IMG/VR virus record: IMGVR_UViG_3300017963_000201
Coordinates: 80,960 to 144,959 of that record
DNA from: a virus
DNA: 64,000 nt
Direction: 5' to 3' (one strand)
Part shown: positions 5,045 to 11,971 of the stretch, piece after piece
How the letters are laid out: each line of letters begins with the position of its first letter
How positions within the stretch are numbered: position 1 is the stretch's first letter
Position numbers and translations under genes: made by a program
The notes under the pieces: model-generated
What the model saw: only the letters and a program-made list of their open reading frames with translations
Told to the model about the DNA's origin: nothing
Database searches by the model: none

Positions 5045-5273
5045 AAAGAAACGGTATGTACGTATATATTTTAGAGATCACAACAGAAAAGCTAAATGGT
5101 ATTGGGCTATAAAGATTAAGAATAAAAAATATATAAGATGCAAAAAAGATGGTGATGATTTTTCTTACATGAGAAAATGTGGTACTGAAATAGAGAAATT
5201 GTATATTATGTTTGGAGAGCCGGAAAAAGAGATCCCGTTTAGGGTATATAGAATATTTTAAACGAGGTAGGAG

Positions 5274-5963
5274 ATGTGGAGTTACTACGGTAGCAAAAAA
5301 AAAAAGATTGCAAAACTTTACCCTTTTCCCAAATACGAATTAATTATAGAACCGTTTGCAGGTGCAGCTTGGTATAGTGTTTTGCACCGAGATAAAAATA
5401 TATTGCTTAACGAAAAGTATATTGTAATATATAATATTTGGAATTGGTTAATAAACAGAGCAAGTTCTAAATTGATTTTGGAAAATGCAGACTTCTATAA
5501 CGGCCAAGATATTAGCTAAATTGATTTGGAAAAACCGCATAAAGACTTGATAGGTTTTTGTATCAATAGAGGTAGCATAGCACCTAAAAATATTGTTCAA
5601 AAATGGAGTTGCCAAGTAGCATCTAAGCCCAATTGGGCAAGCACAACTAACTTTTTTTTAAAGAGAGTAGCAAAACTATTGCCTTAAATTAAGCACTGGA
5701 AAACACAATTTGGCGATTACAAAAAACTACCTAATGTTAAGGCAACTTGGTTCATTGACCCGCCTTATCAGTTTGGGGGCGAACACTACGCAATCAATGA
5801 TATTAACTATCATGAACTTAGTGACTGGTGCAAAACACGAAAGGGGCAAGTAATTGTCTGTGAAAATAATAAGTCTGATTGGCTGCCATTTGTAGCTTTA
5901 ACAGGAATTACAGGACAGCGTTGTAACACAACAGAATCGGTTTGGATAAATGAAAATCTATAA
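5274..5963 (+). pseudogene. D12-class (Dam-like) N6-adenine DNA methyltransferase with two in-frame TAA
   Basis: YYGSK, EPFAG and later FIDPPY (DPPY at 5757-5768) lie in one 230-codon frame interrupted by TAA at 5517 and 5685. Confidence 0.85.
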
Positions 5964-6248
5964 GATTTAGTTATGAAACAGGGAATGCGTCAAATATACA
6001 ATGGGTTTACTCGAGGTACTGGTGGATTAAAGTGCTATTGTTGCGGTGCCCGCTATAGAGCTATGAAAGCTATAAGAGCAAAAAACAAAATAAAAAATAA
6101 GCAAATTACCCGCGAAGCAAACTCTAATGGGTTACACACCCGATAACCACTCTTTGTATTGGGTTTATGGGTGTGGTGATAAGAATAGGGCTTTTACTGA
6201 GCTAGATCCCTACCTAAGTTTCATAAGATAACTGGTATTATACACTTT

Positions 6249-6680
6249 ATGAAATCTATTACAAGCTTCCGTGGTGAATACGCTTTTCTAAGTAATTTCT
6301 ATCCAGCATCAGTCCCCTTTCGGGGTATCATCTTCCCTACCGCCGAGCATGCTTATCAAGCGCAAAAGTCAAAAAGCCTAGAAGACCAAAAAAGGATAGC
6401 ACAAGTCAAAACTCCCGGAGAAGCTAAAAGACTAGGTAGATTTCTTAATCTTTATTCCGGATGGGATCAGATACGTATCCCCATCATGTTTGCAATTATT
6501 TACCGCAAATTTACTCACAACAAATATTTAGGTAAAAAGTTAGTAGCGACTAACCCAAAGATACTTATTGAAGAGAATACCTGGGGCGATAAATACTGGG
6601 GAAAAGTAAACGGAGATGGGCTTAATCTATTAGGATCACAGCTAATGCAGGTACGTTGGCTTCTCATAGAAAAAGGTTGA
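6249..6680 (+). CDS. NADAR (YbiA-like) family protein
   Basis: FLSNFY, FPTAEHAYQAQK, AKRLGR, KF, LIEEN.WGD.YWG, G.NLLG..LM.VR. Confidence 0.93.
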   Translation: MKSITSFRGEYAFLSNFYPASVPFRGIIFPTAEHAYQAQKSKSLEDQKRIAQVKTPGEAKRLGRFLNLYSGWDQIRIPIMFAIIYRKFTHNKYLGKKLVATNPKILIEENTWGDKYWGKVNGDGLNLLGSQLMQVRWLLIEKG

Positions 6681-6797
6681 CACACTCAAGTACTATTATT
6701 AATATAGGTACTAGAGAGTCGATTCAGCTTGGTATCCTGGTTCGATGTCTAAGTTGGCAGACTCTCTTGCTCCTAAGCTAAATGCTTAGGAGTTTTT
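6677..6797 (+). ncRNA. sRNA unit 1 (promoter + ~85-nt RNA + terminator)
   Basis: TTGACA(6677)-17 bp-TAATAT(6700); AGAGAGTC/GACTCTCT stem (6713-6720/6760-6767); terminator CTCCTAAGC/GCTTAGGAG + T5. Confidence 0.7.
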
Positions 6798-6799
6798 AT

Positions 6800-6896
6800 T
6801 TGACAGGATTAGCCTAATACAGTATATTACCTTTTGGGTGTTAGAAGTGGCCTTGGATTGATGATCGCTCCCGGAATTATCCGGGAGCACTTTTTT
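6800..6896 (+). ncRNA. sRNA unit 2 (promoter + ~60-nt RNA + terminator)
   Basis: TTGACA(6800)-17 bp-TATATT(6823); terminator GCTCCCGGA/TCCGGGAGC + T6. Confidence 0.7.
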
Positions 6897-6897
6897 A

Positions 6898-6989
6898 TTG
6901 ACACGTATTACTATTTTGATAAGTTAGCTAACGAACGTGATCTCCGGAATAACCCCCTTCAATTACCGCTACGATTGAAGGGGGGTTTT
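6898..6989 (+). ncRNA. sRNA unit 3 (promoter + ~58-nt RNA + terminator)
   Basis: TTGACA(6898)-16 bp-TAAGTT(6920) with extended TG; terminator CCCCCTTCAAT/ATTGAAGGGGG + T4. Confidence 0.65.
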
Positions 6990-6991
6990 CC

Positions 6992-7082
6992 TTGACACTG
7001 TGAATTAATTAAGATATAAGAAAAATACTGCGTATCCGTCTGGCCCCTCAGACTTTGGCAAGAGTTTGGGGGGTACTTTTTT
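6992..7082 (+). ncRNA. sRNA unit 4 (promoter + ~56-nt RNA + terminator)
   Basis: TTGACA(6992)-17 bp-TATAAG(7015); 13-bp stem 7044-7073 with three G-U pairs (folds fully only on + strand) + T6. Confidence 0.65.
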
Positions 7083-7953
7083 AATCACTTCTAGCAGAAG
7101 AAAAGAATCTGGACCAGAATCCTGCAGGTAGTGCGGAGTAGATTCTCCCGGCCCCCATATAGCCCCCAGGGCCAACCTGATGCAAAACAGTACCCTTGGT
7201 CCTATATTGTTGTTTGAAGCCCACAGAAGCCTTTGTAAAGCGGTTCAGGATGGCGCTAATCATCCCAGACAACTTTCCGTAGTGATCAATGACTAGACTA
7301 TTCCCACCCAAAGCATAATTGAAATCAGTATCGATAGAAAAGATTCCCTGAGATTCCAAAGCTGCTATAGTAGCAGCATCGATTAAAATTGTACCGTATT
7401 GAGCAAATGGGTAGTTGTCTACGGTCAAACTCGTATAAGGTGGAATTGCATTTATGAATTGAACACCGCGATCTAGGTAAAAGATTAAATGTTTATCATC
7501 ATATCCATAGAAAAGCTGAATGTCGGGGTCGGTAGAAGCCCGATCCATGTTTTCGATATAATCACTGATTGACTTTCTTGCCTTATCTACTTGGACTCTG
7601 AGTTGAGCCGCGTATGCATAATACTTGGTAGAAACGGATTTTACAAAAACGTTATTACTGACAGTGACGTTTTCTAATATGCATCTCGTAGCCAGTAAAT
7701 ACTCTTCGTTATAGGTAGAAGCATCAAAGGAATATTGATATATCCCTGTACCCGCGTGAGTAATACTAGTCCCGCCAGATGCCGTAAATGATCCTGAATC
7801 TTCCGATGAATCATCTGATATGTTAATCAAATTAAAAGAACTAGTGCCTGCTACATCTGTTAGGGAGTTTGTCAACGTATCCCGAACATAGAAAGTAATG
7901 GGCTCGGTTTGGTTAGCCAACACTACATGAAAATCGGTAAATGATTGGCTCAT
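7081..7953 (-). CDS. putative head-tail adaptor/neck protein with N-terminal beta-sandwich domain
   Basis: Position downstream of capsid gene; beta-rich N-terminal half (GTGIYQYSF) and helical C-terminal half with 'DFNYALGGNSL.ID', resembling large-phage neck proteins. Confidence 0.5.
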   Translation of the reverse strand: MSQSFTDFHVVLANQTEPITFYVRDTLTNSLTDVAGTSSFNLINISDDSSEDSGSFTASGGTSITHAGTGIYQYSFDASTYNEEYLLATRCILENVTVSNNVFVKSVSTKYYAYAAQLRVQVDKARKSISDYIENMDRASTDPDIQLFYGYDDKHLIFYLDRGVQFINAIPPYTSLTVDNYPFAQYGTILIDAATIAALESQGIFSIDTDFNYALGGNSLVIDHYGKLSGMISAILNRFTKASVGFKQQYRTKGTVLHQVGPGGYMGAGRIYSALPAGFWSRFFSSARSD

Positions 7954-8405: not shown

Positions 8406-8608
8406 TTAATAACTCCAATCAAAGTCAGGCATCCTATCACCATATATCTCGTAATAATCTGTCAGATAAATGGGTATATAGGAATGTCCATTTCCTCAAT
8501 CGATTCTAAAGTATCCCTAACATGCTCTGGCAATATATCTAGGGCTTTGTCTAACGATATAGTAATACTTACACTATCTTTTTGGGCAAATCTTGAGCGC
8601 ATCATCAT
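8406..8608 (-). pseudogene. AQ-tagged acidic protein, apparently frameshifted
   Basis: MMMRSRFAQKDSV... stops at TGA 8462; another frame continues LTDYYEIYGDRMPDFDWSY to a TAA overlapping the next ATG. Confidence 0.5.
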
Positions 8609-8612
8609 AACC

Positions 8613-11928: not shown

Positions 11929-11971
11929 AAAAGTGGTTACCCTGACCAAGGGCTAGTTGATCAAGGTAACC
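11929..11971 (-). terminator. intrinsic terminator after major capsid gene
   Basis: GGTTACCTTGATCAA/TTGGTCAGGGTAACC stem (G-U pairs on minus strand) + ACTTTT. Confidence 0.7.

What the first reader, a model, noticed from the sequence alone, without database searches (positions are those of the whole stretch)
6677..7082. Array of four tandem promoter-sRNA-terminator units
Seen: four perfect TTGACA hexamers (6677, 6800, 6898, 6992) at ~90-120 bp spacing. Each has a 16-17 bp spacer and a -10-like box, then a short stretch with no credible ORF, then a strong hairpin with a T run; the next TTGACA starts within ~3 nt of that T run. The first -35 overlaps the NADAR stop codon. The units share architecture rather than sequence, so repeat and CRISPR finders would miss them. 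Units 2-4 look like minimal 'seed + terminator' sRNAs (5' parts GGGUGUUAGAAGUGGCCUUGGAUUGAUGAUC, ACGAACGUGAUCUCCGGAAUAA, AUACUGCGUAUCCGUCUGG). G-U pairs in unit 4 fix the + strand. Inference: an early-expressed battery of phage small RNAs (antisense silencers, guides, or decoys for RNA-sensing defence proteins). Alternatives are an RNA-polymerase sink or emptied gene cassettes.
Basis: partly seen in the sequence, partly recalled or inferred. Interest (0 to 1): 0.88.

Follow-up and report, generated by a model that had tools for sequence, protein, structure and literature searches.

The report
Four stacked phage small-RNA transcription units
Between two converging gene blocks of a large uncultured phage lie four back-to-back units, each a host-type promoter, a short gene-less stretch and a terminator; they look like genes for four different 55-87-nt non-coding RNAs, they change far less than silent sites in the neighbouring genes, and no transcript or target has been seen.

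Summary
Four perfect TTGACA boxes each have a 16-17-nt spacer and a -10-like box. Each is followed by 16-57 nt with no credible ORF, then a -16 to -22 kcal/mol hairpin with a T run that ends 0-3 nt before the next -35.

They are the only clustered consensus promoter-terminator units in the 145-kb phage record. They close an 18-kb plus-strand accessory island (tRNAs, SNF2 helicase, NADAR) where it meets the minus-strand structural genes.

Only one sequence-distinct relative carries the array. Against it the array shows 4 substitutions and one loop rewrite in about 400 nt, while the two flanking genes differ at about 11% of synonymous sites (Fisher p = 3e-8). All four promoters are identical.

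There is no Rfam or tRNA match, no similarity between units, no coding potential and no antisense target in the phage. The host is unknown and no expression data could be obtained.

Best reading (about 0.5): four independent host-RNAP-driven small non-coding RNA genes. Main rival: a transcription barrier or RNAP sink whose RNAs are by-products. Emptied cassettes are disfavoured by the conservation.

The same architecture recurs in unrelated phage contigs, and this scan has noted it before on other DNA. I class it as a new variant of a known kind, of moderate interest.

The parts
6249..6680 (+). NADAR-domain gene, last gene of the + strand island; its stop codon lies inside the -35 box of P1
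   Evidence: Pfam PF08719, E = 9.7e-26; ORF list
6677..6705 (+). P1: TTGACA, 17 nt, TAATAT
   Evidence: identical in the relative
6712..6799 (+). Unit 1 predicted RNA, about 87 nt. An 8-bp closing stem and a 13-bp imperfect hairpin with G-U pairs (6713-6767) are followed by terminator T1 (6769-6793) and a U tract.
   Evidence: MFE -41.1 kcal/mol, z = -6.6; body -24.6 and T1 -16.0 kcal/mol; terminator scan
6800..6828 (+). P2: TTGACA, 17 nt, TATATT (11 of 12 to consensus)
6835..6897 (+). Unit 2 predicted RNA, about 62 nt: a 32-nt mostly unpaired 5' segment, terminator T2 (6867-6888) and a U tract
6898..6925 (+). P3: TTGACA, 16 nt, TAAGTT, with extended -10 TG at 6917-6918
   Evidence: sequence; scan
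6932..6991 (+). Unit 3 predicted RNA, about 58 nt: a 21-nt 5' segment, terminator T3 (6953-6984, 12 bp) and a shorter U tract
6992..7020 (+). P4: TTGACA, 17 nt, TATAAG
7027..7082 (+). Unit 4 predicted RNA, about 55 nt: a 16-nt 5' segment and terminator T4 (7043-7074, 14 bp including 4 G-U pairs). Its U tract abuts the stop codon of the converging gene.
   Evidence: the substitution at 7063 turns U-A into U-G and so keeps the pair only in + strand RNA
7081..7953 (-). Converging last gene of the minus-strand structural module (weak match to head-tail connector proteins)
   Evidence: PHROG 17327, E = 4e-4; ORF list

Best explanation
The stretch is a row of four autonomous transcription units read by unmodified host RNA polymerase. 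Each unit has a consensus sigma70/sigmaA-type promoter, a short non-coding body and a strong intrinsic terminator.

Predicted products are four unrelated small RNAs of about 87, 62, 58 and 55 nt. Unit 1 is a long, stable, strand-specific hairpin followed by its terminator. Units 2-4 are a 16-32-nt mostly single-stranded 5' segment followed by a terminator, which is the usual build of base-pairing or protein-titrating bacterial sRNAs.

These are the only consensus host promoters found in the 145-kb record. They should therefore fire as soon as the DNA enters the cell and give abundant RNA. I infer that the RNAs are the selected products and act in trans on host or phage RNA or protein. As a side effect, the four terminators in series seal the + strand accessory island off from the late genes.

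Shown: the anatomy, the strand bias, the lack of coding capacity and the strong sequence conservation. Inferred: transcription itself, its timing, action in trans, and the targets.
For: - Anatomy and statistics.
- Hairpins of -16 to -22 kcal/mol with U tracts on the + strand only. Units 1 and 4 fold much better as + strand RNA.
- The only substitution in T4 turns U-A into U-G, which keeps the pair only in + strand RNA.
- No ORF survives inspection. The 14-codon frame in unit 1 changes its length and C-terminus in the relative. The AUG in unit 2 becomes GUG, and that frame has no stop before the terminator.
- Conservation against the only distinct relative: 4 substitutions and one loop rewrite in about 400 nt. 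Synonymous differences are 12/92 in NADAR and 19/197 in the connector-like gene.
- Fisher test, 5/400 against 31/289: p = 2.7e-8.
- Each part is depleted on its own: promoters 0 changes against 14.9 expected, 5' bodies 2 against 13.5, terminators 3 against 14.9.
- Substitutions are dense right up to both edges of the array (6566-6638 and 7111-7150).
- A control intergenic stretch (8419-8612) evolves at about the local synonymous rate.
- No enrichment of promoter-like sites elsewhere, and no phage sigma or RNAP gene was detected.
- Analogy: in an unrelated family of seven phage contigs, a unit of the same build keeps its 5' segment while its terminator stem covaries.
Against:
- The conservation rests on a single pairwise comparison in a mosaic region. 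A recent recombination patch that happens to cover the array would give the same picture.
- The one change in the closing stem of unit 1 (6718, G to T) breaks a pair without compensation.
- No target was found. Matches to the phage genome are 12 nt or shorter, at chance level. Duplex energies against 213 phage start regions are no better than for shuffled seeds.
- No known RNA family matches.
- More distant relatives of the phage do without the array.
Confidence: 0.5

Rival explanations
1. The array works at the level of transcription and the RNAs are by-products. On the + strand, four terminators in series stop any read-through from the accessory island. The four strong promoters keep the DNA loaded with polymerases that face the late operon. 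This would block late minus-strand transcription by collision or occupancy, supply perfectly complementary RNA against any late read-through transcript (as lambda oop RNA does for cII), or simply sequester host RNAP.
For: - The array sits exactly at the convergent junction of the two modules.
- No terminator-like site on the minus strand was found downstream of the connector-like gene's stop at 7081, inside the array or beyond it to 5500, so late transcripts should run into the array.
- The T4 U tract abuts the converging stop codon.
- The promoters are the best-conserved part, with 0 changes in 139 nt.
- Tight packing, with each terminator 0-3 nt from the next promoter, fits a compact barrier.
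Against: - The transcribed 5' bodies are also conserved (2 changes in 126 nt against 13.5 expected). A pure barrier would not need this.
- The other clear convergent junction of the genome has one ordinary terminator and no promoters.
- Promoters add transcription towards the late genes, which works against insulation.
- I know of no described precedent for such a barrier (my own knowledge, not searched exhaustively).
Confidence: 0.27
2. The units are leftovers of gene shuffling: former promoter-gene-terminator cassettes (morons, or PeSL-like terminator/promoter linkers) whose ORFs were deleted, now kept only by chance.
For: - The surrounding 5 kb is an indel hot spot between two phages that are 97-98% identical. 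There are five insertions or replacements, one of them directly beside T4.
- A likely frameshifted methyltransferase lies 0.7 kb upstream.
- The terminator-promoter junctions resemble the composite PeSL elements of T4-type phages (PMC2839356).
Against: - Neutral remnants should diverge at about the synonymous rate. The array diverges about 8-fold more slowly.
- The units share no sequence on which recombination could act.
- No such elements occur elsewhere in the genome.
- No indel boundary lies within a unit or between two units. The indel beside T4 lies at a 29-bp repeat of a gene's 3' end.
- Recombination between PeSLs would leave one element, not four with unique spacers.
Confidence: 0.12
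3. It is a DNA-level site, such as a transcription-activated replication origin, a packaging site or a cluster of regulator-binding sites, and the promoter-like and hairpin features serve that role.
For: - It is a gene-free, conserved 400-bp region at a module boundary where the GC skew changes sign.
- An imperfect palindrome overlaps the spacer and -10 box of P1.
Against: - There are no iterons or repeated binding motifs beyond the -35 boxes.
- G-U pairs and the U-A to U-G change point to RNA-level hairpins on one strand.
- A convergent junction is a more likely terminus than an origin (general knowledge).
- The skew change follows gene orientation.
Confidence: 0.06

Closest known systems
PeSLs (promoter-early stem-loops) of T4-type phages (Arbiol et al. 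2010, PMC2839356; Comeau et al. 2014, PMC4122927)
   Same: Both are composite elements in which an effective terminator hairpin sits directly beside a strong sigma70-like promoter. Both lie in a plastic accessory region that differs by indels between near-identical phages.
   Different: PeSLs are sequence-conserved copies scattered through hyperplastic regions. They flank ORFans and recombine with one another. Here the four units share only the hexamers and T runs, occur nowhere else in the genome and enclose no ORF. No indel boundary lies within or between them.
Stand-alone phage and prophage sRNA genes, for example lambda oop RNA (my knowledge: 77 nt, own promoter and terminator, convergent with cII)
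   Same: A short RNA with its own constitutive promoter and intrinsic terminator. Unit 4 is convergent with the end of a protein gene.
   Different: oop overlaps the cII coding end and acts in cis through RNase III. Unit 4 reaches only the stop codon of the converging gene. Here there are four unrelated units in a row, and no target is known.
Tandem bacterial, prophage and phage sRNA arrays: sibling sRNAs, the FopS/GibS family (Rfam RF04319), PasB-type arrays
   Same: Several small-RNA genes stand head to tail, each with its own promoter and terminator.
   Different: Those arrays are paralogous copies with related seeds. These four are unrelated in sequence, and no Rfam family matched.
Tandem strong early promoters A1-A2-A3 of phage T7, and the multi-promoter host-takeover module of Bacillus phage SPO1 (my knowledge)
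   Same: The strongest host-type promoters of the phage are clustered within a few hundred bases.
   Different: In T7 and SPO1 the promoters drive protein-coding early operons. Here each is shut off after 55-87 nt, and all of them point at the 3' end of the late genes.

Membership tests
sigma70/sigmaA-type promoter | -35 TTGACA, 17 +/- 1 nt spacer, -10 TAnnnT | tested here: met
   All four have a perfect -35 and a 16-17-nt spacer. The -10 boxes match 3-5 of 6 positions. P4 lacks the final T, and P3 compensates with an extended -10 TG.
sigma70/sigmaA-type promoter | Transcription starts about 7 nt downstream of the -10 box | not testable with these tools
Intrinsic (Rho-independent) terminator | G+C-rich hairpin directly followed by a U tract, on one strand | tested here: met
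   Four sites on the + strand and none on the - strand inside the array. Energies are -16 to -21.6 kcal/mol. T3 has a weaker U tract.
Base-pairing sRNA (seed plus terminator) | Independent non-coding unit with a single-stranded 5' region | tested here: met
   The 5' segments of units 2-4 are mostly unpaired in the MFE fold. No credible ORF is present.
Base-pairing sRNA (seed plus terminator) | Seed conserved among relatives | tested here: inconclusive
   1 change in 69 nt against 7.4 expected (p = 0.005; p = 0.04 with the pooled rate), but from one pairwise comparison only.
Base-pairing sRNA (seed plus terminator) | Identifiable complementary target | tested here: not met
   Tested against the phage itself only: matches are at chance level, and duplex energies are no better than for shuffled seeds (unit 4 was not finished). 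Host targets could not be tested because the host is unknown.
PeSL mobile regulatory cassettes | Composite strong promoter plus terminator stem-loop | tested here: met
   Three terminator-promoter junctions with 0-3 nt between the T run and the -35.
PeSL mobile regulatory cassettes | Sequence-conserved copies dispersed in plastic regions and flanking ORFans | tested here: not met
   No similarity between the units, no other copies in the genome and no ORFs between them.
PeSL mobile regulatory cassettes | Indel boundaries between close relatives lie in the elements | tested here: not met
   The five indels between the window and L011 lie outside the units. The one beside T4 is flanked by a 29-bp repeat of a gene's 3' end.
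tRNA or tRNA-like RNA (lead for unit 1 from note e1-5825921) | Cloverleaf or elbow recognised by tRNA models | tested here: not met
   ARAGORN found nothing. There was no tRNA hit even at E up to 10. The MFE structure is one long hairpin that uses the supposed D- and T-loop bases as stem.
Any curated Rfam family (release 15) | Covariance-model match at the gathering score | tested here: not met
   0 hits in the window. In 6500-7300 there were only five chance-level hits, with E between 1.4 and 9.3 and scores far below the gathering thresholds.
Moron (promoter-gene-terminator insert) | Encloses a protein-coding gene | tested here: not met
   No conserved ORF with a ribosome-binding site in any unit.

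The most novel reading that the evidence does not exclude
The phage keeps its only consensus host promoters for a dedicated battery of four unrelated, very abundant small RNAs made in the first seconds of infection. These act as decoys or guides against host RNA-based or RNA-sensing systems, in line with the RNA-centred content of the island (tRNAs, and a Ro60/Y-RNA locus according to unchecked notes). Alternatively, the array is a new kind of collision barrier that ends late transcription where no terminator exists.
Probability: 0.15. Interest if true: 0.7.

Novelty: new variant of a known kind. Interest (0 to 1): 0.45.

Why it matters
Phage-encoded small RNAs are still poorly catalogued, because gene callers and repeat or CRISPR finders do not see them. 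This case shows that a purely architectural signature (promoter, short body, terminator, next promoter) can pick out conserved non-coding units in uncultured phages.

The same signature recurs above chance in unrelated viral contigs: 52 stretches against 14 for a reversed control. If the RNAs prove to be functional, the array would be a compact example of a phage spending its strongest host promoters on RNA rather than protein. Its build would also be of use as a set of natural, tightly insulated mini transcription units.

Tried and rejected
- tRNA or tmRNA: ARAGORN found none in the window.
- Rfam at gathering score and at E up to 10: nothing meaningful; the five weak hits are ctRNA_pT181, PyrR (twice), P9 and ncS54.
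- Coding potential: rejected.
- Homology between units: none. The apparent similarity of unit 2 and unit 3 around CCGGAAT is not significant.
- Iterons or other repeats: none.
- Antisense targets in the phage: blastn-short and duplex folding against 213 start regions were both at chance level. A whole-genome duplex scan timed out, and unit 4 was not finished.
- Relatives:
  - Phage database by DNA: no match.
  - Connector-like protein in phages, viral contigs and metagenomes, and NADAR in viral contigs.
  - 90% clusters and encoding contigs.
  - Result: only two sequence variants of the array exist. Relatives at 55-64% identity have other genes in its place and no TTGACA clusters.
- Host identification: the major capsid protein against GTDB genomes gave one weak unrelated hit. 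The protein-atlas look-up for NADAR gave no clear taxon.
- Phage-specific promoter motif by k-mer enrichment: only ribosome-binding motifs and a weak TACTATA-type word, not followed up.
- Phage RNAP or sigma genes: none detected in a record that is 79% complete.

Full report
**Setting**

The window is the last 64 kb of a 144,959-bp IMG/VR virus record that is estimated to be 79% complete. Minus-strand genes from 7081 to the window end encode a structural module. It includes a connector-like protein, the major head protein, the portal and the large terminase.

Plus-strand genes run from about 11.5 kb before the window to 6680 and form an 18-kb island inside a mostly minus-strand genome. The island holds three tRNA genes, a metallophosphatase, an SNF2 helicase and a NADAR gene. 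According to unchecked first-reader notes it also holds a Ro60/Y-RNA locus. The finding occupies the whole 400-bp gap where the island meets the structural module head-on.

**Observation**

All elements are as described.
- TTGACA stands at 6677, 6800, 6898 and 6992, with spacers of 17, 17, 16 and 17 nt.
- The -10 boxes are TAATAT, TATATT, TAAGTT and TATAAG.
- P3, which has the weakest -10, carries an extended -10 TG at 6917-6918. That detail fits a real promoter.
- Four terminator-like hairpins with T runs follow at 6769-6793, 6867-6888, 6953-6984 and 7043-7074, all on the + strand. Their energies are -16.0, -17.3, -18.8 and -21.6 kcal/mol.
- Each T run ends 0-3 nt before the next -35.
- The NADAR stop codon lies inside the first -35, and the last U tract abuts the stop codon of the converging gene.

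Four TTGACA within 330 nt occurred in 1 of 300 Markov simulations of the genome. With the -10 boxes and hairpins added, a scan of both strands of the genome and of about 120 fetched loci found the pattern only here and in the close relative. The sequence is identical in JGI, ENA and Logan assemblies.

**What the units contain**

Predicted RNAs are about 87, 62, 58 and 55 nt.

Unit 1 folds into an 8-bp closing stem and a 13-bp imperfect hairpin with several G-U pairs, followed by its terminator. The MFE is -41.1 kcal/mol with z = -6.6, against -28.3 for the opposite strand. Units 2-4 are 32-, 21- and 16-nt mostly unpaired segments followed by a terminator. Unit 4 folds at -23.0 kcal/mol on the + strand and -10.4 on the - strand.

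None of the following was found:
- a tRNA or tmRNA;
- an Rfam family at the gathering score;
- anything beyond chance at E up to 10;
- similarity between the units;
- iterons.

Short frames inside the units lack ribosome-binding sites and are not preserved in the relative. This is not supported, because the supposed D- and T-loop bases are paired in one long hairpin and no tRNA model responds.

**Relatives**

Searches by DNA and by both flanking proteins were run in phage records, IMG/VR, JGI metagenomes and the 15-billion-protein collection. They found only two sequence variants of this locus. Relatives whose connector-like protein is 55-64% identical have other minus-strand genes in place of the junction and show no promoter clusters.

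**Conservation**

The two variants are 97-98% identical but mosaic. Five insertions or replacements lie within 5 kb around the array.

| Region | Differences | Source |
|---|---|---|
| NADAR, synonymous sites | 12 of 92 | |
| Connector-like gene, synonymous sites | 19 of 197 | |
| The same two genes, nonsynonymous sites | 8 of 1010 | |
| Array, about 400 nt | 4 substitutions and one loop rewrite | |

The four substitutions are at 6718, 6769, 6861 and 7063. The rewrite is in the T1 loop.

The array evolves about as slowly as nonsynonymous sites and about 8-fold more slowly than the adjacent synonymous sites. Fisher's test gives p = 2.7e-8, or 7e-6 against the pooled synonymous rate of six neighbouring genes.

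Each class of positions is depleted on its own:
- promoters: 0 changes against 14.9 expected;
- 5' bodies: 2 against 13.5;
- terminators: 3 against 14.9.

Substitutions are dense up to both edges of the array (five in 6566-6638 and five in 7111-7150). A control intergenic stretch at 8419-8612 changes at about its local synonymous rate.

The change at 7063 turns a U-A pair into U-G, which keeps pairing only in + strand RNA. The change at 6718 breaks one pair of the unit 1 closing stem, but the overall fold is kept.

The caveat is that this is one pairwise comparison in a recombining region. A recent exchange patch that coincides with the array cannot be excluded.

**Genome context of the promoters**

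Promoter-like sites are not enriched anywhere else: 30 against 28.9 expected, 13 against 16.9, and 40 against 47.1. No other perfect -35 box has a good -10 box. No sigma70-family, T7-type or multisubunit RNA polymerase gene was detected in the record.

The array therefore holds the only consensus host promoters seen in 145 kb. No terminator-like site on the minus strand follows the connector-like gene's stop at 7081, within the array or beyond it down to 5500. The other clear convergent junction of the genome has one ordinary terminator and no promoters.

**Targets**

Matches of the RNAs to the phage genome are 12 nt or shorter, at chance level. Duplex energies against 213 phage start regions are no better than for shuffled seeds. 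The host could not be identified, so host targets are untested. Expression data could not be obtained.

**Interpretation**

The most economical reading is four independent small non-coding RNA genes driven by unmodified host polymerase. Conservation of the transcribed bodies is the main argument that the RNAs, and not only the act of transcription, matter.

The main rival is a transcription-level device: a stacked terminator set combined with a head-on promoter barrier, an RNAP sink, or a source of cis-antisense RNA against late read-through. That reading explains the position and the perfect promoters, but not the conserved bodies.

Emptied cassettes or PeSL-like scars fit the plastic neighbourhood. 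They fail on conservation, on the lack of shared sequence, on the lack of other copies, and on the position of the indel boundaries. A DNA-level site is unlikely because the hairpins are RNA-type and strand-specific.

**Recurrence**

I searched IMG/VR with a strict pattern: T run, consensus promoter, 45-75 nt, T run, perfect -35. It matched 52 stretches, against 14 for the reversed control. About 15 of the 52 have a proper hairpin. These include:
- a four-unit array between tail-fibre-like and endolysin genes (L090);
- a three-unit array at another convergent junction (L092);
- a family of seven contigs in which the 5' segment of the mini-unit is conserved while its terminator stem covaries.

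Earlier notes of this scan describe similar arrays in other phages. This is therefore a recurring but little-described architecture, not a singular object.

**Verdict**

I class it as a new variant of a known kind (phage sRNA genes and terminator-promoter cassettes), of moderate interest, with function and expression still to be shown.

Noticed in passing
window 7079-7107; L011:4861-5285: The close relative carries an extra 425 bp with a minus-strand ORF (134-163 aa, no Pfam hit) between T4 and the connector-like gene. The insert is flanked by a 29-bp direct repeat of the connector gene's 3' end, so both genes end with the same last codons.
   Followed up: partly
window 5274-5950: Three consecutive ORF pieces in different frames read like a frameshifted N6-adenine (Dam-like) methyltransferase. 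They show an EPFAGAAW-type motif, and a DPPY motif near 5757. This is my reading of the motifs; Pfam gave no hit on the pieces. In the relative, 5234-5952 is replaced by 2.2 kb of other ORFs.
   Followed up: partly
window 6127-6231 vs L011:3774-3983: A 100-bp indel turns a 69-aa ORF of the relative into a 34-aa remnant in the window. The relative also has a perfect TTGACA, 18 nt, TAAGAT promoter-like site in front of the 57-aa ORF, and the window lacks its -35 box.
   Followed up: no
L067:14947-16010 (about 4-6 kb before the window start): tRNA-Arg(TCT), tRNA-Leu(TAA) and tRNA-Tyr(GTA), and a fourth weak tRNA hit, lie on the + strand of the same island. First-reader notes also place a Ro60/Y-RNA locus there; I did not check that.
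   Followed up: partly
L090:2053-2400 (+); L092, reverse strand, 2666-2959 counted on the reverse complement: Unrelated viral contigs carry arrays of the same build. L090 has four units (RNAs of about 57, 46, 48 and 44 nt) between tail-fibre-like and endolysin genes. L092 has three units (about 62, 61 and 59 nt) at a convergent junction, and two of its promoters share their spacer sequence.
   Followed up: partly
L087:10459-10551 and the matching stretches of L091, L097, L109, L112, L122, L124: Seven related contigs from one sample share a mini promoter-RNA-terminator unit. Its roughly 20-nt 5' segment is conserved while the terminator stem shows compensatory changes. A second promoter and a roughly 115-nt RNA-like unit follow.
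   Followed up: partly
window 6682-6719: An imperfect 22-nt palindrome (AGTACTAT ... ATAGGTACT) spans the spacer, -10 box and start site of P1. It could be an operator.
   Followed up: no
window 11935-11971 (-): A strong 15-bp terminator-like hairpin lies directly after the major head gene. It is the best minus-strand terminator in the late region.
   Followed up: no
whole record G000: No sigma70-family, T7-like or multisubunit RNA polymerase gene was found, and sigma70-like promoters are not enriched outside the array, so it is unclear how the other genes are transcribed. A TTTACTATAG-like word occurs upstream of several genes.
   Followed up: partly
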